IMG/VR virus record: IMGVR_UViG_3300032030_000014
Coordinates: 67,919 to 131,918 of that record
Length of the DNA: 64,000 nucleotides
Source: a virus
Reading direction: 5' to 3' (one strand)
Shown here: one piece after another, positions 726 through 44,302 of the stretch
Numbering within the stretch: the first letter of the stretch is position 1
Layout: each line of letters starts with the position of its first letter
Made by a program: the position numbers and the translations under genes
Notes under the pieces: generated by a model
Seen by the model: only the letters and a program-made list of their open reading frames with translations
Databases searched by the model: none
What the model was told of the DNA's origin: nothing

Positions 726-1259
726 ATGGCACATTATGTAGTCTGCTCAATTTGTAAAGAGCGATTTGATAGAGATAAATATCCTGCTGTCCTTGTAAGT
801 TCGCGTCGATATGCACATGCGACTTGTGCCGGCACCCTTTCACAAGAAGATGAACAAAAAGAAAAAGACAGAAAAGCGTTAGAAAATTATATTATCAAAT
901 TATTTAATTTAGAGCATATGGATGGACGCATTACTTTACAAATATAGAAATATATGCAAGATCATCCTGAATATACATATTCTGGTATTAAAAGAACATT
1001 AGAATATTTTTATGAAATAAAGAAAAATTCATTGGAAAAGGCTAATGGTGGTATTGGCATTGTTCCGTGGGTTTATGAAGAAGCAAAAAGATATTTTTAT
1101 AATCAATGGTTATTAAGTCAAAAAAACGCTGAGAAAGATATTGAAATGTATATTCCAAAAGTAAGAGAAATTGTTATTCAACCACCAAAACGCCAACCAA
1201 AGAGAAGAAAAGTATTTACATTTTTAGACGAAGAGGAGGTCAAAGACTGTGGCAAATAA
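726..1259 (+). CDS. zinc-ribbon protein (CxxC...H..C), probably one 177-aa protein read through the TAG at 945-947
   Basis: ORFs 726..947 and 954..1259 share a frame and are separated only by a TAG. A strong ribosome-binding site precedes 726 but none precedes 954. If TAG were a stop these would be two small genes. Confidence 0.4.
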
Positions 1260-1299
1260 ATATGTTGATACAACAGCAATTATGTAGGTCATTGGAAAT

Positions 1300-2793
1300 G
1301 TGTTTAATAATCCACAGCTCTTAGACTTTACAGATAAATATACCGTAAATGACGAAGACTTTCCAGATCAGTTTCATAAAATTGCTTTTGGAGCCATTTA
1401 TAAACTACATGAGCTTGGCGTTCAAAAGATTACTCTAAATTCAATCGCAGACTTTCTTGCGGCGAGACCTAAAAGCGAGGCTATTTTCAAACAGCAAAAA
1501 GGCGAAGAATGGTTGTTGAAAGTAGCAGAGAATTGTACTCCCAATGCTTTTGATTATTATTACGATAGACTAAAAAAGTTTACACTTCTTAGAGCATATG
1601 ATGCTTATGGTATTAGCGTAAATGATATTTATGACCCCGACGATATTCTTGATACGAAGAAAAGACAGGCTCAAGAAGATAAATTAGATAATATGAGCCT
1701 AATTCAAATCGCAGATGAAATTGATAAAAAAGTTGAAGATTTGCGCCTGCGGTATGTTGATGAAGTAATTGACGAAGCACAGCAGGCTGGCGATGGAATT
1801 TTTGAATTAATTCAAGGATTTAAAGATAATCCAGAAGCAGGAGTTTCTTTGTATGGTCCGTTGGTAAACACGGTAACGCGAGGAGCAAGATTGAAGAAGT
1901 TTTATCTGCGGTCAGCCCCCACTGGCGTTGGAAAATCTCGTTCAATGGTAGCAGATGCCTGTTATATCGGTTGCAATAAAATGTATGATGAAATTTTCGG
2001 CTGGATAAAAACAGGCCCAGCCCAGCCAACGCTATATATCGCTACTGAACAGGATTTAAGCGAAATCCAGACAATGATGTTAGCTTTTATTTCTGATGTA
2101 AATGAAGAGCATATCATTGATGGTAAGTATGAGGGCGATGAAGAAGAGAGAGTGCTTGAAGCGGCAAAGATTATAAAAAATTCTCCGCTGTATGTAGAAC
2201 ATCTTCCTGATTTCTCCCTTCAAGATGTTGAAAATAAAATTAAACGAAATATTAGAGATCACGATGTAAAGTATATTTTCCACGACTATATTCATACTTC
2301 AATGAAAATTCTTGAAGAAATTACTCGCCGTAGTGGTGGAGTAAAACTTCGTGAAGATAATATTTTGTTTATGTTATCTAATAAAATTAAAGACCTTTGT
2401 AATCAATATGGTGTATTTATTATGTCGGCAACTTAGTTAAACGCAGATTATCAAACAAGTGAAACACCAGACCAAAATCTGCTTCGTGGTGCAAAAAGTA
2501 TTGCTGATAAAATTGATTTTGGTGCAATTATGTTACTTGTAAAAGACGATGATAAAAAAGGTCTTGAAAAAATTCTCTCTACTGGAACCTTTGAAACTCC
2601 GACAATTAAGATTTCAGTATATAAAAACCGTAGAGGCAGATATAAAGGGATTTACCTATGGTGCAAAGCGGATTTAGGCACATGCCGCATCAAGCCCATG
2701 TTTGCAACAGGTTGGGATTACGAACTTATCCCAATTGATGATACAAGAATTCATATAGCAAGTGCATTTCCAGATGATGAAGAAGAAGATTAA
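1300..2793 (+). CDS. dnaB: DnaB-family replicative DNA helicase with one in-frame TAG (2434-2436) at the conserved Gln of motif H4
   Basis: Walker A LRSAPTGVGKSR. ORFs 1300..2436 and 2530..2793 share a frame. The sequence through the TAG reads FIMSAT-Q-LNADYQ...LLRGAKSIADKIDFGAIMLLVKDDD, which aligns with E. coli DnaB ALSQLNRSLE...DLRESGSIEQDADLIMFIYRDE. The start is ambiguous: GTG at 1300 or in-frame ATG at 1282. Confidence 0.85.
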
Positions 2794-2805: not shown

Positions 2806-3030
2806 ATGATTAGAAAGAATGAAAATTTTGGGACTTGTGTAATTACCACTGGCACTGGAACTGGCAAGGTTGGTGCTTGTGAGTATCAAATGCCGCAGTC
2901 TATGGCAACTGAATTACTCAAAGAACGTAAGGGCCAGGAAAAAAATATGCGACCACAAGAGTTTTTGGTAAAGTATGTTAATGAACAGTGTGGTCTGCTC
3001 TATAATTGCGTGAGGGTGACAACTATCTAA
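2806..3030 (+). CDS. hypothetical protein (74 aa)
   Basis: AGGAG ribosome-binding site before the ATG at 2806. TAA stop at 3028-3030 overlaps the primase ATG (TAATG). Confidence 0.5.
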   Translation: MIRKNENFGTCVITTGTGTGKVGACEYQMPQSMATELLKERKGQEKNMRPQEFLVKYVNEQCGLLYNCVRVTTI

Positions 3031-4136
3031 TGTTAGTCTTTGATAAACAAGAAATAAGAGATAGTTTATCAATAGATGACATATTTGACCTTCTGGAAGA
3101 ATGGGGCGGTGAGCCAGAGCGATGCCCGACTGGGCTCATCGCCCGAACTATATGTCATAATCGTTTAAATGATGATGCTTCTCGCAAACTATATTATTAT
3201 GAAAATACTGGATTATTTAGATGTTATACAGGTTGTGAAGACCCAGTATTTGATATATTTCAACTTTGTATAAAAGTTATGAATTTACAAAATAATGTAG
3301 TTTATGATTTAAATGATGCAGTTAGATGGATAGCCAGGAGATTTGGTATCTCTGGTAAAGAAGAAGATAGTCCAGAAGATGTTGGTTTAGAAGATTGGAA
3401 AATCTTAGCAAATTATTCTCGTATTCAAGATATTCAAATAGCAGCTCCGCATGTTGTGCTTGAAGAATATGATGATACAATTTTAACACGATTTAATTAT
3501 GATGTAAAAATAAAACCTTGGCTTGATGAAGGAATTTCAGAACAGGCTATTGAGCACGCAGAAATCGGATATTATCCAGGAGATGCACAAATTACAATTC
3601 CTCATTTTGACAAAAATGGTAGATTTATAGGACTGCGTGGGCGCACTCTGGTAGCAGAAGATGCGGAGAAATATGGTAAATATCGTCCTATGAAAATCAA
3701 TGGAATTATGTATAATCATCCTCTTGGATTAAATCTATACAATTTTAATAATGCTCGTTGTGTAATTCCCAAAATGAAAAAAGCTGTTGTATTTGAAGGC
3801 GAAAAAAGTGTTTTGAAAGCACAAACATATTTTGGTTTTGATAATGATATATATGTCGCTTGCTGCGGCAGCAGCTTATCTTCTTACCAAACACAACTGC
3901 TAATTGATGCTGGAGCACAAGAAATTGTTATTGCGTTTGACAGACAGTTTCAGAATGTTGGAGACGATGAATATTGTCATCTGTTGAGAAACTTAAAAAA
4001 AATACAAATGAAATATAAGAATTATGTTCAAATTTCATATATTTTGGATAGAAAAAAAATAACAGGATATAAAGATAGTCCAATAGATTGTGGAAAAGAA
4101 AAATTTTTGATATTATATAAAGAGAGGGTTCAATGA
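3030..4136 (+). CDS. dnaG: DnaG-like DNA primase (zinc-binding region plus TOPRIM)
   Basis: Cys/His zinc motif CPTGLIARTICHN..FRCYTGC. TOPRIM-like VVFEGEKSVLKAQ...CCGSS...DRQFQNVGDDE. No in-frame TAG. TGA stop at 4134-4136. Confidence 0.7.
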   Translation: MLVFDKQEIRDSLSIDDIFDLLEEWGGEPERCPTGLIARTICHNRLNDDASRKLYYYENTGLFRCYTGCEDPVFDIFQLCIKVMNLQNNVVYDLNDAVRWIARRFGISGKEEDSPEDVGLEDWKILANYSRIQDIQIAAPHVVLEEYDDTILTRFNYDVKIKPWLDEGISEQAIEHAEIGYYPGDAQITIPHFDKNGRFIGLRGRTLVAEDAEKYGKYRPMKINGIMYNHPLGLNLYNFNNARCVIPKMKKAVVFEGEKSVLKAQTYFGFDNDIYVACCGSSLSSYQTQLLIDAGAQEIVIAFDRQFQNVGDDEYCHLLRNLKKIQMKYKNYVQISYILDRKKITGYKDSPIDCGKEKFLILYKERVQ

Positions 4137-4507: not shown

Positions 4508-6286
4508 ATGGAATTTCAACTATTAACACCCAGTGTCCCAATAGATAAAGATGCAACATTGGTAGACAAGGTGTTCGCAAACAGAGGGGTATTTCCCTTT
4601 GACATTTATCACTATCTACATACTACGAAAGGAGATATATTAGAACCTGAGCTACTCGACAATATTGATGCAGGAGCAAAAATGTTTGTATAGCACCTTG
4701 CCGCAGGTGATAAAATTTTTATACAAGTTGATAGCGACGTTGATGGTTATACATCGGCTGCTGCTTTAATCAATTATGCAAATATGATTGCCCCAGGGCA
4801 TGCTTAGTAGAATATCTCCTACCGCATCCACGATGGGAAAGAACATGGAATTATTTTAGATACAATACCAGAAGATGTAAAGTTAGTAATTGTTCCAGAT
4901 GCGGGAAGTAATGATTATGAGTAGCATCAAGCCTTATATGACAGGGGCGTTGATGTTCTTGTAATCGATCACCACGAAGCCGACCGAGTTTCATAGTATG
5001 CCTGTATTATCAATAATTAGTTAAGTAAAAAGTATTCAAATAAATCACTCTCTGGAGTTGGAATGGTTTATAAATTTTGTGAGTATATTGATAAGTTTTT
5101 AAATAAAAATTATGCAGACGAACTATTAGATTTGGTCGCTATCGGTATGGTTGCAGATATGATGGATTTACGAAATTTTGAAACAAAAGAATTAGTAAAT
5201 TTAGGCATGAACCTACGTCGTAATCCATTTCTTGTTAACCTTATCGAAGCGTAGAGTTATTCCTTAAAAGGAAAGGTTACACCTTTTGGAATTTCATTCT
5301 ACATCGCTCCACTTATCAATGCGACAATTCGCGTTGGTTCATTGGACGAAAAACTGCTCTTATTTGAATCAATGTTAGACTTTCGTGCTTACGAGCAAAT
5401 AGCTTCAACAAAGAGAGGCTGTAAAGGATAGCTTGAGACAAGAGTTGAGCAGGCTTGTAGAAATTGCAAAAATATAAAAAACAGACAAACTAAAGCAAGA
5501 GATACAAGCCTAGAAATAATTGATGAAATCATTGAGAGGGATAATTTATTGTCGCACCCCATTTTGATTATCAAATTGGATAATCCAGTAGATGAACATC
5601 TTACAGGATTGATTGCTAATCAAGTTATGGGATAGTATATGCGGCCAGTGATATTGTTAAATCAATGCGTTGATATTGATGAAGAGACTGGCGAAATTAC
5701 AAAAATCGCTTGGCGTGGATCTGGACGAAATGCGACATACTCCAATTTAGTGAATTTCCGAGAGTTCTTGGCTAATAGTGGTCTTGTGGAATATGCACAA
5801 GGTCATGCATCTGCTTTCGGCATTGGCATTTTAGATGAAAATTTAGAAGCATTTACAAAATATATTGATGAAGAATTAAAAGATTTTAGTTTTAGTAATT
5901 GTTATTATGTAGATTTTTGTTGGGTTGGTAATGAAGTAGTTCTTCATGCAAAAGATGTTTTTGAGATAGGAAAACTTGCGGATAATTGGGGACAAGGATT
6001 AGCTGAACCAAAAATCGCAATACAAAATCTTCAAATAGAGAGTTCTCGTATTTCTCTTTTATCACCCGATAAAAATCCTACATTAAAGATTACCCTCTCC
6101 AATGATTTGACTTTAATTAAATTTAGGTCAAGTCAAGAGGAATATGATAATTTATATTCTGAAACAGGTTGTGTAACATTAAATGCTGTTGGCACTTGTA
6201 ACCTCAATGAGTGGCAAGGCAAACTTAGTCCACAAATTGTTATAGAGGACTATGAAATTGTAAGCAAATCTAGTTATTATTTTTAA
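4508..6286 (+). CDS. recJ: RecJ-like DHH-family ssDNA exonuclease / phosphoesterase (~592 aa) with nine in-frame TAG codons
   Basis: ORFs 4508..4693, 5063..5254 and 5639..6286 are all in frame 2, and the intervening stretches read through TAG only. DHH motifs are present: DSDVDGYTSAA (DxD), LVIDHHEAD (DHH), SLSGVGMVYKF (GxGxA-like motif IV). Two consecutive TAGs at 4805-4810. AGGAGG ribosome-binding site at 4489-4494. TAA stop. Confidence 0.8.
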
Positions 6287-9866: not shown

Positions 9867-12800
9867 ATGAGACCATACTTTAATTGTCATACACATACAA
9901 TGTATAGTAATTTAAGATTAGTAGATTCAATCAATAAACCAGAAGATTTAATTAATAAAGCAATAGAATTAGGACTTTCTGGAATTGCGATTACAGATCA
10001 TGAATGTCTATCAGCACATATTGAAGTTGAAAAGCATATGAAGGATGTAAAGAAAGAGCATCCCGATTTTAAGATTGCATATGGTAATGAGATTTATTTG
10101 GTTGATGAAAGAAAACCAGGTCAAAAATATTATCACTTTATTCTTATTGCAAAAGATGCAATCGGTCATCGTGCCCTTAGAGAATTGAGTTCAAAGGCAT
10201 GGATGAATTCATATGTTGATCGCAGAATGGAAAGAGTGCCGACAACAAAAGCGGAATTAAAAGAAGTAGTAGAAAAATTTAAAGGTCATTTAATTGCGAC
10301 AACCGCCTGTATTGGTGGTGAATTACCAAGTCTTGCAATTATTTATTCAAAAGCAAGAATAGTAAATGATAATACAAATGCGATGTTGTATTATAAGCAA
10401 ATAAATGATTTTTTAAATTTTTGTATAGATTTATTTGGAGAAGATTTTTATATTGAATGTGCTCCAGGAACAGATAACGATCAAGTCACAGCAAATATAA
10501 TTCTGCGAAAGATAGCAGATTATTATGGTATTAAAATGGTTGTAGGCACGGACGCACATTATCTTACTAAGAATGAACGGAGTGTTCATAAGGCTTACCT
10601 AAATTCTAAAGAAGGAGACAGAGAAGTAGATTCATTTTATGAATTTACTTATCTTATGGACTCAGACGAAGTTACAAATTTATTGTCTAAGTCTTTTACT
10701 GGAGAGAATAATACTGTAGATAAAATACTTGATAATACTTTAGAATTACAAGAAAAGATACAAGAATATTCGCTCTTTCATAAACAAGATATACCTTCCG
10801 TTGTAGTAAAAAATTATCCACAATATTTGGATATGAAAAAATATAATTTCAGCGAAGAATTAAGCAATGTTTTTGATACAAAATATCCTCATCTAATGGA
10901 TCTGTTTTGTAGTGATGATGTTCAAAATAGATATTGGGTAAATCAATGTTTTGAAGCATTGATTGATAAGGGTATCGGAATGAATGAAACTTATATTGCT
11001 GAACTGGAAGAAGAAGCAAGAGTAAAAAGTGTTATCAGCGAAAAGTTGGAAACAAATATGTTCCGTTATCCTAATACGCTTCAACATTATATTGATTTGA
11101 TTTGGGATTGCGGTTCAATGGTAGGAGCCGGACGAGGTTCATCTTGTGCGGCATTAAATCATTATTTGATGGGTATTACTCAGCTTGATCCAATAGAATG
11201 GGAACTTCCATTCTTCCGTTATTTAAATGATGAACGTGTTGAGTTGGGTGATATTGATATTGATATTTGTCCTTCCAAGTGCGGTCTGGTTTTACAGAAG
11301 ATTGCGGCAGAACGCAGTCAGATGTTTAAAGATGATGTTCCGGAATGGGCGAAGAAATCTTTCGGATGTACGCGTATTTCAACTTTTGGAACCGAGGGCA
11401 CAAAGTCAGCAGTTCTAACTGCGTGTCGTGGCTATCGCTCAGAAGATTATCCAGAAGGAATTGATGTAGATCAAGCACAGTATATGGCATCTCTTATTCC
11501 GCAAGAACGTGGTTTTCTATGGCCGATCAAAGATGTTCTTGAAGGGAATGAAGAAAAGAATAGAAAGCCGGTTGGCACTTTTATTCGTGAAGTAAATAAT
11601 TATCCAGGTCTTTTGGATATTATAAAAGGCATCGAAGGTTTGGTAAATAAACGGAGTTCTCATGCATCTGGTATTGTTCTATTCGATGGCGATCCGTTTG
11701 AACATAGTGCATTTATGAAAACTCCAAAAGGAGAAATCATAACTCAATATAACTTGCATGATGCAGAATATATGGGTTTGACAAAATATGATTTTCTGGT
11801 AACAGAAGTTCAGGATAAAATTGTTCAAACAATTCAGTTCCTCCAAGAGGATGGAGAAATTGAGAAAGATTTGAGTTTGCGTGAGATATACAATAAATAT
11901 CTACATCCAAGTGTTTTGCCAATAAAGACAGATACAAAAATGTGGGATGCTCTTGGAGAAGTTTCAGTTATCAATACATTCCAGTTTGATAGCGCAGAAG
12001 GTTCAAAAGCGGCAAAGCAGTTGAAGCCTCGCACAATTCTGGAAATGGCTGATGCGAATGGTTTGATCCGTTTGATGGGTGAAGAAGGTCAGGAACGTCC
12101 AATTGATAAGTATTATCGTTATAAAAACGATATTAGTTTGTGGTATGAAGAAATGGATAATTTCGGTTTGACAAAAGAAGAACAGAAAACATTGGAGCCA
12201 TACTTCAAACCATCTTATGGTGTTCCACCCAGCCAAGAGCAGCTAATGAAGATGTTGATGGATCCGAATATTTGCGGTTTTACCTTGGGCGAAGCAAATA
12301 ATGCTCGTAAAATTGTAGGTAAGAAGCAAATGTCAAAAATTCCAGCACTTCGTCAACAGGTTCTGAATAGTGCGGCAAGTCCTCGTTTGGGTCAGTATGT
12401 CTGGCGATTTGGGGCTGGGCCGCAGATGGGTTATTCATTCTCAGTTATTCATGCTCTTGCATATAGTTTTGTAGGAGCACAAACATTGTATCTTGGCACT
12501 CATTGGAATCCGATTTATTGGGATACAGCGTGTCTGGTAGTCAATAGCGGTTCTTTGGAAGATGCGGTTGATGAAGATGGCGAAGCGTTGTATGATGATG
12601 AAGAAGAGACAGAAGATACAACAAAGAAGAAAGCAACAAGTACTGATTACGGTAAAGTGGCGAAAGCGTTAAATGATATTATTGATGCTGGAATAAATGT
12701 CAGTCTTGTAAATATAAATGGTTCTGATTTTGGTTTCAAACCAGATGTAAAGAATAATAGAATTTTGTTCGGTATGAAAGCATTGTTGAATGTGAATGAT

Positions 12801-13859
12801 GATTTGGTAAATAAGATAATTGAAAATCGTCCATACCGAGGAATTAAAGATTTTTATAATCGTATAAAGCCAACAAAACAAGCAATGGTATCGCTTATAA
12901 AAGCCGGTGCGTTTGATGATATGATGGAACGTAAACTGGCAATGACTTGGTATATTTGGGAAACTTGTGATAAGAAGTCAAGATTGACTTTACAGAATTT
13001 CCCAACATTAGTAAAGCAAGATATGGTTCCAAAAGATACTTCTGAACGTCAATTAGCATATCGTGTTTATGAATTCAATCGTTATTTAAAAGCAATGTGT
13101 AAAGATTCAAAGCATACTCTTGATTATGTTCTAAACGCAAGAGCGATTGAGTTTTTATACGAATTAGGTTTTGAAAATATGATTGAAGATAATGAACTCT
13201 TGAATATGAAAAAGTGGGATAAAAAGTATCAGGTATTTATGGATACATTTAGAGATTGGCTGAAGGAAGATGGAGAGAATATTCTAACAGAATTAAATAC
13301 TCGAATCTTCAAAGCCGATTGGGATAAATATGCCGGTGATGCAAATTATTCTGCTTGGGAAATGGAAGTTTTATGTTTCTATAAACACGAACATGAATTG
13401 GCAAAAGTCGATATGAATAAATATGGTTTGAGTAATTTTAATGATTTGCCAGAAGAGCCAGAAGTAGAGAGAACTTTCTATAAAAATAATAAAGCAATTC
13501 ATTTATTCAAACTTAGTCGTATCGCAGGAACTTGTATTGCAAAGAATAAAGTTAAAGGCGTCGTAACTATCTTAACAACAGATGGTGTTGTAAATGTCAA
13601 ATTTAGAAAAGAATATTTTGCATTGTTTGATAAACGTATCTCTGAAAAAGGAGAAGATGGAGTCAAACACGTTGTAGAAAAGTCTTGGTTTGATAGAGGT
13701 AGTATGATTATGGTACAAGGTGTGCGGTCGGGCGACACGTTTATTACGAAGAAATATGCATCATCCGTTGGTCATCAGTTGTATCATATTTTGAAGATAG
13801 ATGAAAATGGAGACTTGGTTCTTCAAAATGAAAGATATAAAGGAGAAGGCGGAGAATGA
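9867..13859 (+). CDS. dnaE: DNA polymerase III alpha subunit (DnaE-type C-family polymerase) with N-terminal PHP domain, 1330 aa
   Basis: PHP motifs CHTHTMYS / ITDHE / GTDAHY. The palm GDIDIDICPS...ISTFGTEGTKSAVL...HASGIVLFDG...YDFLVTEVQDKI aligns with E. coli DnaE PDFDVDFC...IITFGTMAAKAV...HAGGVVIAP...FDFLGLRTLTII. Also GYSFSVIHALAYSF versus GYGFNKSHSAAYAL. Zero TAG in 1330 codons. Confidence 0.9.
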   Translation: MRPYFNCHTHTMYSNLRLVDSINKPEDLINKAIELGLSGIAITDHECLSAHIEVEKHMKDVKKEHPDFKIAYGNEIYLVDERKPGQKYYHFILIAKDAIGHRALRELSSKAWMNSYVDRRMERVPTTKAELKEVVEKFKGHLIATTACIGGELPSLAIIYSKARIVNDNTNAMLYYKQINDFLNFCIDLFGEDFYIECAPGTDNDQVTANIILRKIADYYGIKMVVGTDAHYLTKNERSVHKAYLNSKEGDREVDSFYEFTYLMDSDEVTNLLSKSFTGENNTVDKILDNTLELQEKIQEYSLFHKQDIPSVVVKNYPQYLDMKKYNFSEELSNVFDTKYPHLMDLFCSDDVQNRYWVNQCFEALIDKGIGMNETYIAELEEEARVKSVISEKLETNMFRYPNTLQHYIDLIWDCGSMVGAGRGSSCAALNHYLMGITQLDPIEWELPFFRYLNDERVELGDIDIDICPSKCGLVLQKIAAERSQMFKDDVPEWAKKSFGCTRISTFGTEGTKSAVLTACRGYRSEDYPEGIDVDQAQYMASLIPQERGFLWPIKDVLEGNEEKNRKPVGTFIREVNNYPGLLDIIKGIEGLVNKRSSHASGIVLFDGDPFEHSAFMKTPKGEIITQYNLHDAEYMGLTKYDFLVTEVQDKIVQTIQFLQEDGEIEKDLSLREIYNKYLHPSVLPIKTDTKMWDALGEVSVINTFQFDSAEGSKAAKQLKPRTILEMADANGLIRLMGEEGQERPIDKYYRYKNDISLWYEEMDNFGLTKEEQKTLEPYFKPSYGVPPSQEQLMKMLMDPNICGFTLGEANNARKIVGKKQMSKIPALRQQVLNSAASPRLGQYVWRFGAGPQMGYSFSVIHALAYSFVGAQTLYLGTHWNPIYWDTACLVVNSGSLEDAVDEDGEALYDDEEETEDTTKKKATSTDYGKVAKALNDIIDAGINVSLVNINGSDFGFKPDVKNNRILFGMKALLNVNDDLVNKIIENRPYRGIKDFYNRIKPTKQAMVSLIKAGAFDDMMERKLAMTWYIWETCDKKSRLTLQNFPTLVKQDMVPKDTSERQLAYRVYEFNRYLKAMCKDSKHTLDYVLNARAIEFLYELGFENMIEDNELLNMKKWDKKYQVFMDTFRDWLKEDGENILTELNTRIFKADWDKYAGDANYSAWEMEVLCFYKHEHELAKVDMNKYGLSNFNDLPEEPEVERTFYKNNKAIHLFKLSRIAGTCIAKNKVKGVVTILTTDGVVNVKFRKEYFALFDKRISEKGEDGVKHVVEKSWFDRGSMIMVQGVRSGDTFITKKYASSVGHQLYHILKIDENGDLVLQNERYKGEGGE

Positions 13860-14355: not shown

Positions 14356-16632
14356 ATGATTTTAGTTAGTAAAAGAGATGGAACATTAGTTCCATTTGAT
14401 AAAGAAAAGATTATAAACGCAATAAATGCAGCTTTCATTGAAGTAGATGGTACACTTTATGAAGATGATACTGCAAGAGATATTGCGGACGATATTGAAG
14501 ATTATTTTAAATATCAAGACGGAAATGGATGTAGTGTTGAAGAAATCCAAGACCTCGTAGAAGATTATCTAATGCGTTCAGAGCGTAGAGATGTAGCAAA
14601 AGCATATATCCGTTATCGTTATAAAAAAGAAGTCGCTCGTAATTATTAGCATGATTTTATTGATGCCATCAGAGAAAAACTATCAGCCGCAGACGTATAG
14701 AACCAAAATGCTAATGTAGACGAACATTCATTTGGCGGTCGCACAGGAGAAGCCTCAAGTGTAGTAACCAAAAAGCTCGCTCTTGATTATTTAATCTCTA
14801 AGAAAGCAAGAGAAAATCACGAAGGTAATATGGTCTATATTCATGACCTTGATGCCTATTATGTTGGTTCTCACAACTGTTTAAGCATTCCGTTTGACGA
14901 TCTCTTGGCTAATGGTTTTAATACTCGTCAAACAGACGTGCGTCCGGCAGGTTCTGTAAATACCGCTTTCCAACTTGTCGCTGTTATTTTCCAGCTTCAA
15001 AGTCTTCAACAATTTGGCGGAGTAAGTGCTACGCATCTTGACTGGACAATGGTTCCATATGTACGCAAATCATTTTATAAACATTTTAAAGATGGTATAC
15101 ATTACGTAGAATAGGTTATATACGATTGCACGCCTCCAGAAGGTATGGAAGTAAAAGATATACCAATTGATAGTGCTTTTTATGTAAGAGAAAAATATCC
15201 AAATGCTTACCGGTATGCTATGGATATGACAGAACGTGAAGTTCACCAAGCCGTTGAAGGAATGTATCATAATTTAAACACTCTTCAGTCCAGAAGTGGC
15301 AATCAACTTCCTTTTACTTCAATCAATTATGGCACTTGTACTTTACCAGAAGGAAGAATGATTACTCAAGCTCTCTTGGAAGTTTCTATTGAAGGACTTG
15401 GTAAATTACATAAAACATCCATATTCCCATGCGGAATTTTCCAATGCATGAAAGGAGTAAACCGTGATCCAGGAGACCCTAATTACGACTTGTATCAATT
15501 AGCTCTAGAATCTACAGCCAGAAGACTTTATCCTAACTACGCTAATGTAGACTGGTCAGGAAATGCGGGCTACGATCGAAATGATCCCAAAACTTATTTC
15601 TCTACCATGGGATGCCGCACAGCAAATGGTGCCGACATTAACGCAGAACCAGGAGTTAATCCTCAGACTAAAGATGGTCGTGGAAATATCTGCCCCGTAA
15701 CAATTATTCTCCCAACTCTTGCAATGATGGCTTGGGAGAAACTTGATAGTCAGCCTTGGGAAATCGATGAGGACGGCACAAAATATAAGAGTGGTAACGT
15801 TATTGATGCCTTTATGGAAATTCTTGATAATAAAATTCATGAAGCAAAAGATATGCTAATTGAACGCTTTGAGTGGATTTGCTCTCAATCTCCAGAAGCC
15901 GCAAAGTTTATGTATGAAAATAATACAATGCTTGGCTATCATCCAGAAGAAGGAATTAGGAGTGCATTGAAACATGGCACCATTGTTATTGGTCAGCTCG
16001 GCTTGGCAGAAGCTCTTCAAATTCTCATTCATCAAGATCATACGACTTCAGAAGGTATGATTTTAGCAAAACGCATTGAGTAGTTATTTAAAGATCGTTG
16101 TGCTGAATTTAAGCAAGAATATAAATTAAATTTTGGTGTCTATTACACACCTGCGGAAAATTTATGTTATACTGCATTAAAAAAATTCCGTCAACAGTAT
16201 GGAATTATTCCTAATGTTAGTGATAAAGATTTCTTTACGAATAGTATGCATGTTCCGGTGTGGCATCAAATTAGTCCATTTGAAAAGATTGATATTGAAA
16301 GTCAATTAACAGGTTATTCTTCTGCTGGATGTATTACTTATGTAGAACTTGATGCTTCTGCTATTCATAATACTAAAGCATTAGAGCAGATTGTTAATTA
16401 CGCTATGGACCACGATATTCCTTACTTTGCTATTAATGTTCCTTCTGACACTTGCCTTGATTGCGGTTTCCAGGGAGAAATCAATAATAAATGTCCTATG
16501 TGCGGCAGCTCTAATATTCAACAACTACGTCGTGTTACTGGATACTTAACAGGTAACTATACTACTGCGTTTAATCTCGGTAAACAAGATGAAGTGCATC
16601 ATCGAGTTAAGCATGTGGGGGTTATGGAATGA
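14356..16632 (+). CDS. nrdD: anaerobic ribonucleoside-triphosphate reductase NrdD (~758 aa) with four in-frame TAG codons
   Basis: ORFs 14356.., 14830.., 15145.. and 16246..16632 share a frame. The joins read through TAG at 14647, ~14695, 15112 and 16081. N-terminal ATP-cone (KRDGTLVPFDKEKI), FTNSMHVP, C-terminal Zn/glycyl-radical region CPMCGS...RVTGYLTGNYTTAFNLGKQDEVHHRVKH. Confidence 0.85.
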
Positions 16633-30288: not shown

Positions 30289-32820
30289 TTAGCGTACATT
30301 AAAGAATGGGCCTACGCTAGCTGCCTTATTATTATTTAATTCATTAATTACAATGCAGTAATAAATGCCATCATCTTCTGGTCCAAGCTAATAACTTCTG
30401 CTACCAGAGCTTTCACCAAAGACGATTTCACCATTTTTATAAGTAGCAACATCTGCATCACAAATAATATCTTTATCTCCTGGGAATTCAGTATTACCAA
30501 GGATTGCGGCAAGAGCACCATCAAGATCAATTTGAGCCTTAATCTAACTATAATCATCATAGTCGGCTTCATTGTTAATAACAGCATGCATCCAAAGATA
30601 AGTAATACCATCAGAAAGAGCAGGCTCTTCAAGATTGAAGCTAAGTGTTCTATAATTGCCTCTAAAATCTTGTTTATCAATGGCATGAATTACTTTATCT
30701 ACTGGAGCGTTAGCATAAGAAAGAACAGGTGCTTCTGGAGAATTAGTAACACGATAGTTACCAGAGTTCTCTGTGGTAGAAACCTTATTTCTTGTAGCAG
30801 TTACTTCGCAGAAATAAGAATTATCTAAACCTTCTTCTGCTAAACCAACAATGGTCATTTCATTGCCATTGATACTATATTGTGCACTTGAAGGAGCTTC
30901 GGTGGAAACTCTAAAGGTCAAAGTTGTATCATTTACTTTTCTTGTAATAGGAGCTTCATCAGCCTTAAACCAGAAAAGAATATGTCCATCAGCTACACCG
31001 AGATCATTTTCATCTGCCTCTTCAAAAGTATAAGATTCATTCCAAACAACACCGGCAAGATGATCTTGCTCAGTATCAATATCCAAAGCAATCCATTGAT
31101 GTGTTCCTTGCTCTGGATTGGTAGAATTAAAACTCTTTAACTCGGCATCTGGATAAATAGTAATAATTGTACCATTTTGAATAATATTAATATGTTCTTG
31201 GTTAAAGATACCTTTTGCACCAAGAGCACCATTCTCAGAAGCGTTTTCTAACCATTCTGGATCATCTGGAAGTTGAGATGCAGGAAGTGCGGCAACAGGC
31301 ATAATAGGCTCAACCGCAGTTACATTAGAAACAGTACCATCATTGGCAATCTTTTTCCAGTTGTAACTTAAAGTTACTTGTGGATCTTCTCCGACCTCAG
31401 AAGCAGGACGGTCTTTTTCGCCTGGCTCTGCTGCAGCTTTTAATGTAATACTGCCATTATTAGTAATAGCATGCACGCCTTTATCTTCTACTGTTACAGA
31501 AATATTTTCATTCTCTTCAGGAAGATTAATAACTGGCTTGAGAGGACCAGGAATACGAATTCTCTCTTCTCTATCCATCTTACGAACAGTGGTATTAACA
31601 GAAGTACGAGCTTTTACATCAACAGAATATTCACCAACTGTATCAACAGAAGCAACGCTTAATTTCTTATAAAGATGAATTATTGCTCCACCTTCAACAA
31701 AATTATCACCATCAACTTCAATATTAGCAATTCTATCTCTTGATACAAGAGTAGAAACAATAACATTTTCATCTTCGACGGTAATAGTATAATATTCCAT
31801 ATTATTAGAAAGATGTTCACTAACAGGGACTTCTTCATATTCAAATGTTACTGAACTAATATCTATAGAATCAGATTCATAAGATCCAGAAGTAGAATTG
31901 TAAGAAAACTTTTTCCAATCATAAGAGATATTACCAATATCGCTGTTTCTTGCACTAATGGCAAGTTTTACAACACTATTTGCTCCAACAGGAAGATCTA
32001 CGATTTTAACAAGTTCATTTCCTTCTGGAGACATAACGTAAAGAGGAACTGTTACGATGGGCTCACCAGGAATTGGAGCAGATGGATCATAAATACCAAC
32101 ATTCTTAATTCTACTGGTAATTACTTTACCATGATCAATTTCTTTTACGCTATGATTAATTAAATCATAATTTAAAGAAGCATTAATTGTAACTTCGGCA
32201 GGAAGAGTGCTAAAGCTATAAACTAATTGACGAGCTCCATTTTCATCACTTTCACCAAGTTGATAAAAACGAACAGCAAATTTAATATTGCCTGCGGCTT
32301 CAGTTAATTCATGAGAAATTGGCCAGCCAAAAATGATTTTGCCAGGAATAGTTTCAATATCCTTGCCAAAGTGCTGAGAAATACCAGCAATTACATTTTT
32401 ACTAAGGTCTTTTGCTTCCCATTGAATAACGATATTTAAATCATCACTGGCTAAATCAGTAGAATCAAAATATCTATCAATAGTAAAATAAACAACTTCA
32501 GCAAGTTCATCGCCTTGAACACCAACACCATAGCGACCAAAAGAAGAATTTGGTACTTTTACTGTTCTGGAATTGGCGTCAATCTCAAAGAAATCTTCAT
32601 CCAATGGAAGTCTTACAAAAAAGCGACTAATATCTTCGTTGTCAGAAATTTTAACAAGATCTTCTAAATAAGCAAAATACTCATTTAATGTAGTGATAGC
32701 AAAATCTTCTGAAAATTCTGCTTCTCTATTTTCTGGAGGATTTTCAATTAGTGCTTTAGAAGCCTTATCGAAAAGGAGATTATATTTGTCAGCATTTGCT
32801 GAGCTAATATATGTAACCAT
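30289..32820 (-). CDS. large structural protein (~843 aa); the track ORF 30544..32820 continues past the TAG at 30544
   Basis: In frame past TAG 30544-30546 and 30388-30390 to a TAA at 30289-30291 (...GDKDIICDADVATYKNGEIVFGESSGSRSYQLGPEDDGIYYCIVINELNNNKAASVGPFFNVR). The ribosome-binding site of the next gene follows ~20 nt later. Confidence 0.5.
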
Positions 32821-32850
32821 TCAGCTTTCATCCTTTCTTAATATTTTTAT

Positions 32851-32882
32851 AGAAGAGAAGAGGTTTTACCCCCTTCTCTTCT
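32851..32882 (-). terminator. hairpin between the 70-aa gene and the 843-aa gene (weak terminator or RNA structure)
   Basis: Stem agaagagaag, loop aggttttaccccct, stem tctcttct. There is no clean T-tract on the minus transcript. Confidence 0.25.
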
Positions 32883-32911
32883 ATATCTAAAAACTATTTA
32901 CTTCAAACTAA

Positions 32912-33124
32912 TTAGTTTTGACCTTTAAGAGCAACCTCTCTCCATTGAGAAAGCTCCTCATCAGAGCAACGAACTTGTTTTACTCTTTTGACACCATTTG
33001 AAAGAATTTTTCCTTCATCAGCAGTCAAAACATTGATTCTTACATAATAAATATCTTCAAGATGAACAGGAGATTCAATAACTCCATTTGTCCCAAGATA
33101 TTTATATAAAACTTGTTTTGTCAT
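32912..33124 (-). CDS. small hypothetical protein (70 aa)
   Basis: GGAGAG ribosome-binding site. True TAA stop at 32912-32914. No TAG. Confidence 0.5.
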   Translation of the reverse strand: MTKQVLYKYLGTNGVIESPVHLEDIYYVRINVLTADEGKILSNGVKRVKQVRCSDEELSQWREVALKGQN

Positions 33125-33142
33125 TATTTATCTCTCCTTTTC

Positions 33143-41104: not shown

Positions 41105-41140
41105 TTACTAGTTCTCCTTTCATCTCTATTTTATTAATAA

Positions 41141-41167
41141 GGGGAAAGAATAATTCATTCTTCCCCC
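41141..41167 (-). terminator. rho-independent terminator after the 637-aa gene
   Basis: Stem ggggaaagaat, loop aattc, stem attcttccccc, with A/T flanks. Same stem family as the terminator at 29346. Confidence 0.5.
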
Positions 41168-41181
41168 TTATTATTTATTAA

Positions 41182-43095: not shown

Positions 43096-43115
43096 CTTTT
43101 ACATTTCTCCCTTCT

Positions 43116-44237
43116 TTAAGTATTTCTCTCATTAAGCTCTTGCCATTTCATTCGTTCAGTTAAAGAAGTTAAATTAGAATTTATAGTATTAACTTCCTAA
43201 ACTAAATTTTCATTTCCGGCAGTTAAGAGAAGATCATTTAAATTCCCAATTTCTGCTTTTGTAACACAATTAGTTTCTAAATAAGCAACACGAGAAACTA
43301 AACCTGGTATAGTATTCCCTGTTTGAGAGTCTGTCTTATCATATAAAACATCGTTTAATTTAGAAACCTCTGTATTAAAAGTTGTTATTTTTACATATTC
43401 TGTTAAATTAACATTACCAAAAGTTCCGATTTGTTCCAAATGGTTGTTAACAACAATATATTCATCATACTTATTGCCCGAAGATGGATCATTACCATTA
43501 TCAATTAGATAAATTACTTCTGGTCTAATTGGTTCAGGATCTAATCCAGAAATTTGAGCCTGAATTTTTTCCATTGTAGTAATCTAATAATCTAAAGTAC
43601 CAACAACAGAACTGGACCATTCAATACCATTACTTGTTTTTATAGGTATGCTGCCCTATGGGGCAAGATTATAACCATTTAAAATATATTGCTAATCAGA
43701 ATCTAATGAAAAAATATCAGTATTAAAAGTAGGAATATTAATTACGGACCAAGCACCATCACCGCGTAAAAATTTACCCTAATCTCCAGCCTTTGGAACC
43801 GGTACTAGCCCAGATACACCTGCGACTGTTGGTGTAGCACCTTGCATTATGCCAACCGCAGTATCTATAATTGTAGACAAGGAGGTATTTTCCCAACGTT
43901 CAGTCGTATCATTATATACTAAAATCTGTTTATCTGCAAGACTTTCATCATCAATATAAACGTTTTCTAAATCGTTAATACTAATATCGCCAGAAACGTT
44001 ACCGCCATTGCCAACTCCGCTAATTAGTTTTTGACCTAAGTAGAGCTTTCCTTCTGTCGAAGTTTCAGCATTTTGATAAATAAAATATAAAGTATCATTA
44101 CTGATTTTTTCTGGCGTAGTTTGCAATGTTTCCCAAGCAGTAATAGATCCTCGCATAAATTTAACATAATGAACATTGGGATCATTTATTAAATTTGCCA
44201 CGTATTTATTCTCTCCTTTCTTCTCATATTTTCTCAT
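43116..44237 (-). CDS. structural protein (~373 aa)
   Basis: ORFs 43197..43574 and 43779..44237 share a frame and the reading continues to a TAA at 43116-43118. The ATG at 44237 has no ribosome-binding site. The in-frame GTG at 44202 (AAAGGAGAG ribosome-binding site, ...VANLINDP) may be the real start. Confidence 0.45.
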
Positions 44238-44257
44238 AAAATATAAAAAATAAAATA

Positions 44258-44293
44258 AAGAGATTATCCCTGTTTGTCCTGAGATAATCTCTT
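44258..44293 (-). terminator. rho-independent terminator (perfect 12-bp inverted repeat)
   Basis: Stem aaagagattatc, loop cctgtttgtcctga, stem gataatctcttt, with a T-rich run on the minus transcript. Confidence 0.55.
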
Positions 44294-44302
44294 TATTTCA
44301 AC

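What the first reader, a model, noticed from the sequence alone, without database searches (positions are those of the whole stretch)
2434..2436. In-frame TAG sits exactly at the invariant Gln of the DnaB helicase H4 motif (SQLNR)
The window reads FIMSAT-[TAG]-LNADYQ...LLRGAKSIADKIDFGAIMLLVKDDD. E. coli DnaB has ALSQLNRSLE...DLRESGSIEQDADLIMFIYRDE at the same place. The amber codon occupies the position of a universally conserved, functionally required glutamine. This identifies the decoded amino acid as Gln and rules out suppression-as-stop or a pseudogene at this site.
Basis: partly seen in the sequence, partly recalled or inferred. Interest (0 to 1): 0.75.

Follow-up and report, generated by a model that had tools for sequence, protein, structure and literature searches.

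The report
Amber codon read as glutamine in phage DnaB
The in-frame TAG in this phage's DnaB helicase gene sits at the catalytic glutamine and is almost certainly read as glutamine, which makes it a clean but ordinary example of the known "TAG = Gln" recoding used by many gut and rumen phages.

Summary
TAG 2434-2436 is codon 396 of a 514-codon DnaB-family helicase gene (1249-2793). It aligns with the ATP gamma-phosphate-sensing Gln of the SQL(N/S)R motif (Thermus aquaticus (Taq) Q361, E. coli Q384).

One correction: that motif is H3, not H4. H4 is the RESGSIEQDAD loop.

In 65 related phage contigs the homologous codon is CAG (54), CAA (7) or TAG (4), and never anything else. A second TAG at codon 13 behaves the same way. 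The 112 codons after the TAG are under the same strong purifying selection as those before it (dN/dS 0.01-0.06). This excludes a pseudogene or a split gene.

The whole window is TAG-recoded, with 283 in-frame TAGs. TAG makes up 47% of Gln codons in tail genes and 11% in replication genes.

The window has no tRNA. Its own contig is incomplete (163.7 kb against about 200 kb). The closest complete relatives (DnaB 94% identical) carry one or two tRNA(CUA) genes with Gln-type acceptor features.

The phage is not crAss-like. It has an SPbeta-like replication module. Public gene calls on this contig already read TAG as sense. This is a known phenomenon and a new member of it. Whether TAG still terminates translation before the suppressor is expressed cannot be decided from sequence.

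The parts
1249..2793 (+). DnaB-family (SPbeta YorI-like) replicative helicase gene: 514 codons, GTG start, TAA stop, two in-frame TAG codons
   Evidence: Pfam DnaB_C 58.4 bits and DnaB N-terminal domain 28.4 bits. 36-41% identity over 96% of its length to helicases of Enterococcus phages and Bacillus SPbeta-like phages (yorI). 120 full-length homologues of 74-97% identity. Homologues such as P0003 start at the position equivalent to 1249.
1233..1239 (+). Shine-Dalgarno sequence GAGGAGG, 9 nt upstream of the GTG start at 1249
   Evidence: Read directly from the sequence.
2434..2436 (+). The finding: TAG at codon 396, at the gamma-phosphate-sensing Gln of helicase motif H3
   Evidence: Aligns with Taq Q361 (E. 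coli Q384). Relatives have CAG 54, CAA 7, TAG 4. The five closest IMG/VR relatives in the viral-contig set (L001-L005) have CAG.
1285..1287 (+). Second in-frame TAG, codon 13, in the DnaB N-terminal domain
   Evidence: Aligns with the Q of Q(A/S)VLG in Taq and Geobacillus DnaB. Relatives have CAA 34, CAG 21, TAG 6, CAT 1.
1912..1938 (+). Motif H1 (Walker A), SAPTGVGKS
   Evidence: Sequence and position within the DnaB_C match.
2269..2292 (+). Motif H2 (Walker B), KYIFHDYI
   Evidence: Aligned with the '(I/V)DYLQ' segment of solved DnaB chains.
2416..2445 (+). Motif H3, FIMSAT[TAG]LNA
2479..2538 (+). Motif H4 (DNA-binding loop), LLRGAKSIADKIDFGAIMLL; diverged from RESGSIEQDAD
   Evidence: Aligned with 'DLRESGSIEQDADLIMFIYRD'. 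H4 definition from PMC4760082 and PMC1950529.
726..1259 (+). YorH-like gene upstream, overlapping the dnaB start by 11 nt; 1 in-frame TAG
   Evidence: Pfam Phage_SPbeta_YorH on the public gene call. TAG count.
3030..4136 (+). Probable DNA primase (zinc-finger/Toprim-like sequence features read by eye); no Pfam match; 0 TAG
   Evidence: Public gene call of 368 aa. Sequence features. No Pfam family at E <= 0.001. TAG count.
4508..6286 (+). RecJ-like DHH exonuclease; 9 in-frame TAGs, 4 of them in Gln-majority columns
   Evidence: Pfam DHH and RecJ_OB. Codon table.
9867..13859 (+). DnaE-type DNA polymerase III alpha, 1330 aa, no TAG among 41 Gln codons
   Evidence: Pfam PHP, DNA_pol3_alpha, finger and HHH_6 domains. 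TAG count. Across relatives 5 TAG against 1464 CAR codons. An exact-sequence look-up of this protein identified the window's own contig.
14356..16632 (+). Anaerobic ribonucleotide reductase NrdD; 4 in-frame TAGs, all in variable columns
   Evidence: Pfam NRDD 490 bits. PDB alignments.
23444..63983 (-). Tail and structural gene block, heavily TAG-recoded: ORFs of 1907, 2653, 1025, 1183, 903 and 2810 aa carry 22, 47, 20, 25, 19 and 70 TAGs. The last ORF is the C-terminal end of a tape-measure gene of about 3000 aa that runs off the window.
   Evidence: ORF and TAG counts. PHROG tail and tape-measure hits. Relative L066 has a 3060-codon stop-free frame (TAG read as sense) with 94 TAGs.

Best explanation
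The window comes from a phage of about 200 kb and 32.5% GC. Its replication module resembles that of Bacillus phage SPbeta, and it uses genetic code 15 (UAG = glutamine). The TAG at 2434-2436 is an ordinary Gln codon in that code. It arose by a recent C-to-T transition from the ancestral CAG, and it specifies the motif H3 glutamine that contacts the ATP gamma-phosphate in DnaB helicases.

Shown here:
- The codon is in frame and sits in an invariant Gln column.
- It interchanges only with CAG/CAA among relatives.
- The sequence after it is under strong purifying selection.
- TAG behaves as Gln throughout the window.

Inferred:
- During infection, ribosomes read UAG with a phage-encoded amber-suppressor tRNA(CUA) carrying Gln. 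Such tRNAs were found in the closest complete relatives, but not in the window or the examined parts of its incomplete contig.
- The tRNA would be charged by the host glutamine system, either GlnRS or the GluRS/GatCAB route.
- Full-length DnaB, which also needs read-through at codon 13, can be made only once that tRNA is present and out-competes release factor 1.
For: Position.
- The TAG is in frame and the protein matches both DnaB domains.
- X396 aligns with Taq Q361 (E. coli Q384), the gamma-phosphate contact.

Comparative codons.
- The homologous codon is CAG 54, CAA 7, TAG 4 in 65 IMG/VR loci.
- Codon 13 is CAA 34, CAG 21, TAG 6, CAT 1.
- All 120 best database homologues have Q at the H3 column.
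- TAG at this column occurs in lineages of 82%, 72% and 71% identity whose listed neighbours of similar identity have CAG, so it arose several times.

Selection.
- dN/dS for codons 397-508 is 0.013-0.058, against 0.033-0.073 upstream, with no frameshift or other stop.

Window-wide recoding.
- Stop-free sequence rises from 42.8 kb to 77.2 kb when TAG is read through, and ORFs of up to 2818 codons appear.
- Opposite the 15 window TAGs in 1-13.8 kb, relatives have Gln in 268 of 627 cells against a 3.5% background. Opposite relatives' TAGs the window has Q in 201 cells, by far the most frequent residue.
- BLOSUM62 ranks Q first, and TAG positions are uniform along ORFs (KS p = 0.93).
- Gln frequency is 3.9% in replication genes and 3.8% in tail genes with TAG counted, but 3.5% and 2.0% without it.

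Decoder.
- The Thg1-like protein P0255 is recorded on a contig of 200,444 bp, the length of the nearest IMG/VR relative (DnaB 94% identical). The loci read around P0255 carry 21 tRNAs, including two tRNA(CUA) plus tRNA-Gln(UUG) and tRNA-Gln(CUG).
- Another contig of 190,978 bp, matching by length the contig of DnaB P0009 (94% identical, TAG at codon 13), carries one tRNA(CUA).
- All 16 distinct tRNA(CUA) analysed have an unpaired 1:72, and 14 of 16 have G73. The phage tRNA-Gln(UUG) genes have a weak A:U or U:A 1:72 pair and G73 in 21 of 23.

Literature.
- TAG-to-Gln recoding with suppressor tRNAs is documented in many gut phage clades, with variable recoding of replication genes (Borges et al. 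preprint). It has been confirmed by metaproteomics for crAss-like phages (PMC9523058, abstract).
- Public gene calls on the window's own contig already read TAG as sense.
Against: - No tRNA gene and no Rfam family were found in the 64-kb window.
- The window's own contig (163,725 bp) did not appear among contigs carrying the tRNA-cluster marker proteins. The suppressor is therefore shown only in relatives with about 94% DnaB identity.
- Linking those tRNA clusters to the DnaB-bearing genomes rests on equal contig lengths (200,444 and 190,978 bp) and on 45.4 + 155.5 kb summing to about 200 kb. I did not read a continuous sequence.
- The amino acid carried by the tRNA(CUA) is inferred from acceptor-stem features and codon substitutions, not measured. 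Whole-sequence similarity does not clearly assign these tRNAs to Gln.
- dS is saturated (1.3-1.8), so the dN/dS values are approximate.
- No peptide evidence exists for this phage.
Confidence: 0.88

Rival explanations
1. Time-dependent dual meaning. Early in infection UAG is still a stop, so dnaB yields only a 12-residue peptide. Later, once the phage suppressor tRNA accumulates, the same codon is read as Gln. The two amber codons would then gate helicase synthesis and the onset of replication. This refines the best explanation rather than excluding it.
For: - The published model for recoded phages has early genes in standard code and a later code switch.
- PolIII alpha, primase, the SF1 helicase and the methyltransferase have 0 TAG in 85 Gln codons, against 26 in 156 for the rest of the replication module (Fisher p = 1.1e-5).
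- Most genes around the tRNA(CUA) in L336 are TAG-free, although 6 of the 18 called genes there carry 1-4 in-frame TAGs.
Against: - TAG in dnaB is sporadic. 39 of 64 relatives have none, and the H3 position is TAG in only 4 of 65. This looks like neutral drift under efficient suppression rather than a conserved regulatory device.
- Primase and the SF1 helicase do carry TAGs in other relatives.
- There are no expression data.
Confidence: 0.3
2. TAG is decoded as an amino acid other than Gln, for example pyrrolysine (ARAGORN labels tRNA(CUA) as 'Pyl'), Glu, Lys, Tyr or Trp.
For: - ARAGORN's default label for the CUA anticodon is tRNA-Pyl.
- At variable columns, relatives often show E, K or N opposite TAG.
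Against: - At the two conserved DnaB columns the only sense codons are CAA/CAG, with one CAT.
- BLOSUM62 totals: Q 1485, E 935, K 615.
- The Gln deficit of tail genes is exactly filled by TAG.
- The tRNA(CUA) genes have an ordinary GTTC(G/A)A T-loop, G73, and a weak or unpaired 1:72 pair like tRNA-Gln.
- No pyl genes were seen in any annotated neighbourhood.
Confidence: 0.04
3. TAG is a genuine stop here. Either dnaB is a pseudogene, or it is split into an N-terminal 395-residue fragment and a separately initiated C-terminal fragment.
For: Under the standard bacterial code the ORF is interrupted at codons 13 and 396.
Against: - Strong purifying selection continues after the TAG.
- 61 of 65 relatives have an uninterrupted CAG/CAA at this codon.
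- No ATG/GTG/TTG occurs in frame before M426, inside H4, and no ribosome-binding site follows the TAG.
- A stop at codon 13 would already abolish the protein.
- 283 further in-frame TAGs in 30 other genes of the window show the same behaviour.
Confidence: 0.02
4. A sequencing or assembly error produced a C-to-T change in a CAG codon.
For: TAG differs from the CAG of the closest relatives by a single transition.
Against: - The public contig found by exact protein look-up is identical to the window over the first 23 kb compared.
- The same TAG recurs at this column in L006, L019 and L043.
- The window holds 283 in-frame TAGs.
Confidence: 0.01

Closest known systems
Stop-codon-recoded (genetic code 15, TAG = Gln) gut and rumen phages: crAss-like, Lak, and the 'gemstone' clades of Borges et al. 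(Jade and Sapphire have genomes of about 200 kb)
   Same: - In-frame TAGs at Gln positions of conserved proteins.
- Low GC content.
- TAG strongly enriched in structural genes (47% of Gln codons) and variable in replication genes.
- tRNA(CUA) genes in related genomes.
- Genes end in TAA or TGA.
   Different: - Not crAss-like. The replication module is SPbeta-like (YorH, YorI/DnaB, a primase candidate, RecJ-like, PolIII alpha). The nearest GenBank phages infect Bacillota, at only 36-41% protein identity.
- I could not assign the phage to a named clade, because no terminase tree was made.
- Here the replicative helicase itself needs read-through at codon 13 and at the catalytic Gln, while PolIII alpha is kept TAG-free.
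Bacterial DnaB replicative helicase (E. coli, Thermus aquaticus, Geobacillus; PDB 2q6t, 2r6a)
   Same: - Two-domain architecture.
[quoted passage not shown]
   Different: - Very low sequence similarity (best E = 6e-8).
- H4 reads RGAKSIADKID instead of RESGSIEQDAD.
- The Gln is written as UAG.
Bacillus phage SPbeta YorI helicase and its gene neighbourhood
   Same: - 36.6% identity over 96% of the protein.
- The upstream gene matches Pfam Phage_SPbeta_YorH, and a relative has a YorF-like gene.
- A DnaE-type polymerase lies in the same module.
   Different: From memory: SPbeta is a 134-kb temperate phage using the standard code. This phage is about 200 kb and TAG-recoded, and it has giant tail genes.
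E. coli supE-type amber suppression (tRNA-Gln with a CUA anticodon)
   Same: UAG is read as Gln by a tRNA(CUA) with Gln acceptor identity: weak or unpaired 1:72, G73, and often G2:C71 and G3:C70.
   Different: - supE is a weak chromosomal suppressor tolerated at rare sites.
- Here decoding must be close to complete, because one ORF has 70 TAGs.
- The tRNA is phage-encoded.
T7 gp4-type SF4 helicases
   Same: The same RecA-like fold and motif order, H1 to H4.
   Different: The phosphate-sensor position is His (H465, from memory) rather than Gln. 'Universally conserved Gln' therefore holds only for DnaB proper.

Membership tests
DnaB-family (SF4) replicative helicase | C-terminal RecA-like DnaB_C domain above the Pfam gathering score | tested here: met
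   PF03796 scores 58.4 bits against a cut-off of 27, residues 210-471.
DnaB-family (SF4) replicative helicase | N-terminal DnaB helical domain | tested here: met
   PF00772 scores 28.4 bits against a cut-off of 23, residues 12-108. The match spans the TAG at codon 13.
DnaB-family (SF4) replicative helicase | Motifs H1 (Walker A, GxGKS/T) and H2 (Walker B Asp) | tested here: met
   APTGVGKS at residues 223-230. IFHDYI aligns with (I/V)DYLQ of solved DnaBs.
DnaB-family (SF4) replicative helicase | Motif H3 Gln contacting the ATP gamma-phosphate | tested here: met
   The column is occupied by TAG. It is Gln only under code 15. Relatives have CAG/CAA in 61 of 61 sense codons.
DnaB-family (SF4) replicative helicase | Motif H4 DNA-binding loop (RESGSIEQDAD-like) | tested here: inconclusive
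   The segment aligns in register, but only R, S, I and the last D are kept (RGAKSIADKID).
DnaB-family (SF4) replicative helicase | Hexameric 5'-3' helicase activity | not testable with these tools
   This needs biochemistry.
Genetic code 15 (TAG = Gln) recoded phage | Reading through TAG restores long ORFs that match conserved proteins | tested here: met
   Stop-free sequence rises from 42.8 to 77.2 kb. Full-length DnaB, RecJ, NrdD and tail proteins are recovered.
Genetic code 15 (TAG = Gln) recoded phage | In-frame TAG aligns preferentially with Gln in homologues | tested here: met
   Gln in 268 of 627 cells against a 3.5% background. 6 of 13 columns are Gln-majority (P = 2.7e-6). BLOSUM ranks Q first.
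Genetic code 15 (TAG = Gln) recoded phage | TAG is not used as a terminator; genes end in TAA or TGA | tested here: inconclusive
   All 40 ORFs end in TAA or TGA, but only because they were defined that way. TAGs are spread evenly along ORFs with no pile-up at 3' ends (KS p = 0.93). Public gene calls agree.
Genetic code 15 (TAG = Gln) recoded phage | Suppressor tRNA with a CUA anticodon encoded by the phage | tested here: inconclusive
   None in the window. The window's contig is incomplete. Closest relatives have two tRNA(CUA) (L338/L339) or one (L336).
Genetic code 15 (TAG = Gln) recoded phage | Peptide-level evidence of Gln at UAG | not testable with these tools
   Published only for crAss-like phages (PMC9523058).
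Pyrrolysine decoding of UAG | pylS and pylBCD genes, an atypical tRNA-Pyl, and UAG at positions not conserved as Gln | tested here: not met
   No pyl genes in the annotated neighbourhoods. The tRNA(CUA) genes have an ordinary GTTC(G/A)A T-loop and G73. UAG interchanges with CAG/CAA.
crAss-like phages (Crassvirales) | Crassvirales-type gene content and sequence similarity | tested here: not met
   DnaB tblastn against 50,697 phage records hits only phages of Bacillota (Enterococcus, Bacillus, Staphylococcus and others), and megablast finds nothing. The replication module is SPbeta-like with a DnaE-type polymerase.

The most novel reading that the evidence does not exclude
In this lineage the amber codons in dnaB (codon 13 and the catalytic H3 Gln), together with those in recJ and nrdD, would make replication itself depend on the phage's own suppressor tRNA. 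The polymerase is kept strictly TAG-free. The code switch would then gate the onset of DNA replication rather than only late genes and lysis.

A further unexcluded twist: the suppressor tRNAs are almost all encoded with an unpaired 1:72 (strictly so in all 16 analysed). In the closest relatives they sit directly downstream of a Thg1-like 3'-5' nucleotidyltransferase. This leaves open that 5'-end editing of the tRNA is the switch.
Probability: 0.1. Interest if true: 0.6.

Novelty: new member of a known kind. Interest (0 to 1): 0.27.

Why it matters
Practical value. The codon is a textbook-quality diagnostic. A stop codon at a catalytic, invariant Gln of an essential enzyme tells an annotator at once to use translation table 15 for this contig. 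With table 11 the helicase, RecJ, NrdD and every tail gene are shredded.

Biological value. The value is modest. The finding adds a roughly 200-kb clade with an SPbeta-like replication module, probably infecting Bacillota, to the list of TAG = Gln phages. It also shows that recoding in this clade reaches the replicative helicase, while the polymerase is spared across relatives (0.3% against 5-18% TAG share among Gln codons). That pattern bears on the open question of when during infection the code switch happens. Nothing here changes current understanding of recoding.

Tried and rejected
- crAss-like origin. I first suspected it because of the giant minus-strand ORFs. I rejected it: there is no nucleotide match in GenBank phages, and the protein relatives are Bacillota phages and SPbeta.
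- NrdD as a second diagnostic. Its four TAGs (codons 98, 115, 253 and 576) align with variable columns in solved NrdD structures, so they say nothing.
- Suppressor tRNA hunt by genome walking. Eight IMG/VR scans found no tRNA in about 136 kb of the nearest relative. Rfam also found nothing there. The tRNA cluster was reached only through marker proteins, DUF2828 and Thg1. The window's own contig never appeared, probably because it lacks about 37 kb.
- Assigning tRNA(CUA) identity by whole-sequence similarity to other phage tRNAs gave mixed nearest classes. Only the acceptor-end features were consistent.
- Thg1 next to tRNA(CUA) as a general rule. It holds only in the near relatives. 7 of 51 loci with a CUA tRNA have a Thg1 hit, and 17 Thg1 loci have no CUA tRNA in range.
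- Passing TAG-containing DNA references to the protein tools fails because of the stops. Sequences had to be pasted with Q.
- Structure prediction and fold search were not run. They would not add to the codon-level evidence.
Full report
1. THE OBSERVATION

Bases 2434-2436 are TAG.

The gene most likely starts at GTG 1249. A GAGGAGG Shine-Dalgarno sequence lies at 1233-1239 with a 9-nt spacer, and homologues begin at the equivalent position with MA(S/N)KY(I/V)D. The gene ends at TAA 2791-2793, giving 514 codons. Under this reading the TAG is codon 396. A second in-frame TAG lies at 1285-1287, codon 13.

With both TAGs read as Q, the protein passes Pfam's curated thresholds for DnaB_C (58.4 bits against 27) and for the DnaB N-terminal domain (28.4 bits against 23).

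2. WHICH RESIDUE THE CODON CORRESPONDS TO

I entered the TAG as X, so it could not bias the alignment, and searched solved structures. X396 aligns with the Q of ALSQLSR in Thermus aquaticus (Taq) and Geobacillus DnaB, and with the Q of ALSQLNR in a gamma-proteobacterial DnaB.

In the Taq chain the residue is number 361. The Taq structure paper states that the ATP gamma-phosphate is within contact distance of K213 (E. coli K237) and Q361 (E. coli Q384). It places this stretch in motif H3 and describes H4 as the DNA-binding helix-loop-strand (PMC1950529). PMC4760082 likewise calls H4 the DNA-binding motif. The RESG/SIEQD placement of H4 is from my own memory of the DnaB intein insertion site.

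SQLNR is H3. H4 in this protein is LLRGAKSIADKID... (2479-2538).

Codon 13 aligns with the Q of Q(A/S)VLG in the N-terminal domain of Taq and Geobacillus DnaB.

3. EVIDENCE FROM RELATIVES

A database search returned 6351 homologues. The best 120 are 74-97% identical and full length, and all have Q at this column.

This could have reflected gene callers translating TAG as Q, so I fetched DNA for 65 IMG/VR loci and read the codons directly.
- At the H3 column: CAG 54, CAA 7, TAG 4.
- At codon 13: CAA 34, CAG 21, TAG 6, CAT 1.

The five closest IMG/VR relatives in the viral-contig set (L001-L005, 87-94% identity) have CAG at H3. The window's TAG is therefore a recent C-to-T transition. TAG also occurs at this column in L006, L019 and L043 (82%, 72% and 71% identity), and the listed loci of similar identity have CAG, so it arose several times.

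dN/dS between the window and L001-L006 is 0.013-0.058 for codons 397-508 and 0.033-0.073 for codons 14-395. dS is saturated, so the ratios are rough. Even so, constraint is clearly as strong after the TAG as before it.

The first in-frame ATG/GTG/TTG after the TAG is M426, inside H4. A pseudogene or a two-polypeptide DnaB is therefore not tenable.

4. THE WHOLE WINDOW IS RECODED

Reading through TAG raises stop-free sequence (stretches of at least 100 codons) from 42.8 to 77.2 kb. It reveals ORFs of 2818, 2654 and 1908 codons. Reading through TGA or TAA yields no comparably long ORFs.

Forty ORFs contain 283 in-frame TAGs.

For the 15 TAGs in 1-13.8 kb, relatives have Gln in 268 of 627 non-TAG cells, against a Gln background of 3.5%. 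Conversely, where relatives have TAG the window has Q in 201 cells, by far the commonest residue. Six of 13 testable columns are Gln-majority (binomial P = 2.7e-6). BLOSUM62 totals rank Q (1485) ahead of E (935) and K (615). TAG positions are uniform along ORFs (KS p = 0.93).

A composition check is telling.

| Gene set | Gln frequency, TAG counted | Gln frequency, TAG not counted |
|---|---|---|
| Replication and nucleotide-metabolism genes | 3.9% | 3.5% |
| Tail genes | 3.8% | 2.0% |

TAG is 11% of Gln codons in the replication block (1-19.3 kb) and 47% in the structural block.

5. WHAT THE PHAGE IS

It is not crAss-like. Megablast of 1-12,000 finds nothing among 50,697 GenBank phage records. 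The helicase's best annotated relatives are from Enterococcus, Bacillus (SPbeta YorI), Staphylococcus and other Bacillota phages, at 36-41% identity.

Gene content:
- YorH-like gene, 726-1259
- DnaB, 1249-2793
- a primase candidate, 3030-4136 (no Pfam match; assigned from sequence features read by eye)
- RecJ-like, 4508-6286
- SF1 helicase, 7955-9157
- methyltransferase (weak Pfam matches below the curated cut-offs), 9157-9813
- DnaE-type PolIII alpha, 9867-13859
- NrdD and NrdG, 14356-17314
- dUTPase
- RuvC-like resolvase
- a minus-strand tail block, 23.4-64 kb, ending in a tape-measure gene that runs off the window

An exact look-up of the TAG-free polymerase identified the window's own public contig as ena:ERZ27257205:k141_4886592, 163,725 bp. 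It is identical to the window over the first 23 kb compared. Its public gene calls already read TAG as sense: RecJ at 592 aa, the tail fibre at 1907 aa, and DnaB at 503 aa starting from M12. Complete relatives are 172-201 kb.

6. THE DECODER

The window has no tRNA gene (ARAGORN) and no Rfam family.

I walked along the nearest complete relative, IMGVR_UViG_3300032007_000018 (200,444 bp, DnaB 94% identical). This covered 167.7-200.4 kb, 1-28.1 kb and 63.9-103.7 kb without finding a tRNA. More distant relatives showed tRNA clusters containing tRNA(CUA), located near an RNA ligase/phosphatase block, a major-vault-protein-like gene and a DUF2828 gene.

Marker proteins then led to the closest relatives.
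- The Thg1-like protein P0255 has exactly one carrying contig in the 0.2-1 Mb class and a longest contig of 200,444 bp.
- The same protein lies on JGI 3300028886 Ga0256407_10000190 (155,515 bp). Together with the 45,385-bp DnaB-bearing contig from the same metagenome, this sums to about 200 kb.
- Around it lie 21 tRNA genes, including two tRNA(CUA) (L338:11229-11304 and 11513-11587), tRNA-Gln(UUG) and tRNA-Gln(CUG).
- A second near relative, a 190,978-bp contig, carries 15 tRNAs including one tRNA(CUA). Its length equals that of the longest contig carrying DnaB P0009 (94% identical). P0009's gene (read on the 15.5-kb contig L337) has TAG at the codon-13 position and CAG at H3.

All 16 distinct tRNA(CUA) sequences collected up to one search have a non-Watson-Crick 1:72 pair, and 14 have G73. 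The phage tRNA-Gln(UUG) genes have a weak A:U or U:A 1:72 pair (22 of 23) and G73 (21 of 23). Most other isoacceptor classes do not combine these features; the few tRNA-Trp genes also have a weak 1:72 pair and G73. One of the two later-found suppressors (SupA in L338) has an A1:U72 pair rather than a mismatch.

From memory, a melted 1:72 pair, G73, G2:C71 and G3:C70 are E. coli GlnRS identity elements. The L336 suppressor's acceptor stem (UGGGGUG...CACCCCU-G-CCA) is nearly that of E. coli tRNA-Gln. This is consistent with Gln charging but does not prove it.

The window's own contig did not appear among the carriers of these markers. Judged by synteny with the 200-kb relative, its left end falls just short of the tRNA region.

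7. MECHANISM, WITH STATUS OF EACH STEP

- Shown: TAG 2434-2436 is a constrained sense codon equivalent to CAG at the H3 Gln.
- Shown: the window uses TAG as a frequent Gln-like codon.
- Shown in near relatives only: phage-encoded tRNA(CUA).
- Inferred: the tRNA is charged with Gln by host enzymes.
- Inferred: decoding is nearly complete. An ORF with 70 TAGs needs about 99% read-through per codon for a useful yield, which implies that release factor 1 is out-competed or neutralised.
- Open: timing.

On timing, PolIII alpha, primase, the SF1 helicase and the methyltransferase have no TAG in 85 Gln codons, against 26 in 156 elsewhere in the replication block (Fisher p = 1.1e-5). Across relatives the TAG share of Gln codons varies by gene.

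| Gene | TAG share of Gln codons across relatives |
|---|---|
| PolIII alpha | 0.3% |
| DnaB | 5% |
| SF1 helicase | 6% |
| Primase | 8% |
| RecJ | 18.5% |

Only the polymerase is consistently spared. Helicase synthesis depends on suppression in this genome and in 25 of 64 relatives. Because TAGs in dnaB are sporadic rather than conserved, I read them as drift under efficient suppression. A replication gate remains possible.

8. COMPARISON AND NOVELTY

TAG-to-Gln recoding in phages, suppressor tRNAs, enrichment in structural and lysis genes, and variable recoding of replication genes are all published (Borges et al. preprint; Yutin et al. and others listed). Gln at UAG has been shown by metaproteomics for crAss-like phages (PMC9523058).

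This window is a further member of that kind, from a roughly 200-kb clade with an SPbeta-like replication module. It may correspond to one of the named ~200-kb clades, but I could not test that.

The finding is correct, useful for annotation, and not surprising to a specialist.

Noticed in passing
window 1285-1287: A second in-frame TAG at codon 13 of dnaB aligns with the Gln of Q(A/S)VLG in bacterial DnaB N-terminal domains. Relatives have CAA/CAG in 55 of 56 sense codons. Public gene calls start DnaB at ATG 1282, which makes this TAG codon 2. GTG 1249 with a strong Shine-Dalgarno sequence fits the homologues better.
   Followed up: yes
window 9867-13859 (also 3030-4136, 7955-9157, 9157-9813): DnaE-type PolIII alpha (1330 aa, 41 Gln codons) has no TAG. 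Across 43 relatives it has 5 TAG against 1464 CAA/CAG (0.3%), compared with 5-18% for DnaB, primase, the SF1 helicase and RecJ. The polymerase is specifically kept readable in the standard code.
   Followed up: partly
window 23444-63983 (- strand): Very large tail genes: 2810 aa (70 TAGs), 2653 aa (47 TAGs), 1907 aa (22 TAGs). The 391-codon ORF at the window edge is the C-terminal end of a tape-measure gene that forms a 3060-codon stop-free frame with 94 TAGs in relative L066. Gln is half as frequent in these genes unless TAG is counted.
   Followed up: partly
L051:11253-11563 (relative); also L053 and L056: A group I intron (Rfam RF00028, 73.9 bits) interrupts dnaB of a relative about 67 nt downstream of the H3 Gln codon. 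Two other relatives have insertions of about 304 nt (frame-shifting) and about 1065 nt (in frame) in the gene, with no Rfam hit. The window's dnaB has no insertion.
   Followed up: partly
L338/L339:226-13852; L336:418-9152 (closest relatives): Clusters of 15-21 tRNA genes, with one or two tRNA(CUA) directly downstream (331-682 nt) of a Thg1-like 3'-5' nucleotidyltransferase gene. Nearby lie radical-SAM, DUF2828/DUF7788, major-vault-protein-like, metallophosphatase, NADAR, RNase T-like and RNA-ligase genes. Most of these genes are TAG-free, but some, including a radical-SAM gene with 3 TAGs, are not. The Thg1 adjacency is not general: 7 of 51 loci with a CUA tRNA have a Thg1 hit.
   Followed up: partly
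tRNA(CUA) genes in L160-L254 (16 distinct sequences): Every one of these amber-suppressor tRNAs is encoded with a non-Watson-Crick 1:72 pair (U.U, C.U, U.C, A.A, U.G, G.A), and 14 of 16 have G73. This may be a Gln-identity feature or a substrate for 5'-end editing. It was not resolved. A later-found suppressor (SupA, L338:11229-11304) has an A1:U72 pair instead.
   Followed up: partly
L078:3-3145 (relative, beyond the window's right end): Three consecutive ORFs of roughly 330-370 codons upstream of the tape-measure region carry no TAG at all, unlike the neighbouring tail genes. Their function was not tested; I guess head/capsid from position. Possibly the most highly expressed structural proteins avoid TAG.
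   Followed up: no
L066:2-556, L078:9409-9999, L085:6592-7335, L336:9177-9878: Several GIY-YIG or T5orf172-type homing-endonuclease-like ORFs are scattered through relatives' genomes. Together with the dnaB intron, this suggests active mobile-element traffic.
   Followed up: no
window 2806-3030: A small 74-codon ORF between dnaB and the primase gene is called in the public annotation and conserved in a relative (L337). Its function is unknown and it has no Pfam hit.
   Followed up: no
window 14647, 14698, 15112, 16081: The four TAGs in nrdD all lie in columns that vary among solved NrdD structures. NrdD therefore gives no independent test of the decoded amino acid.
   Followed up: yes
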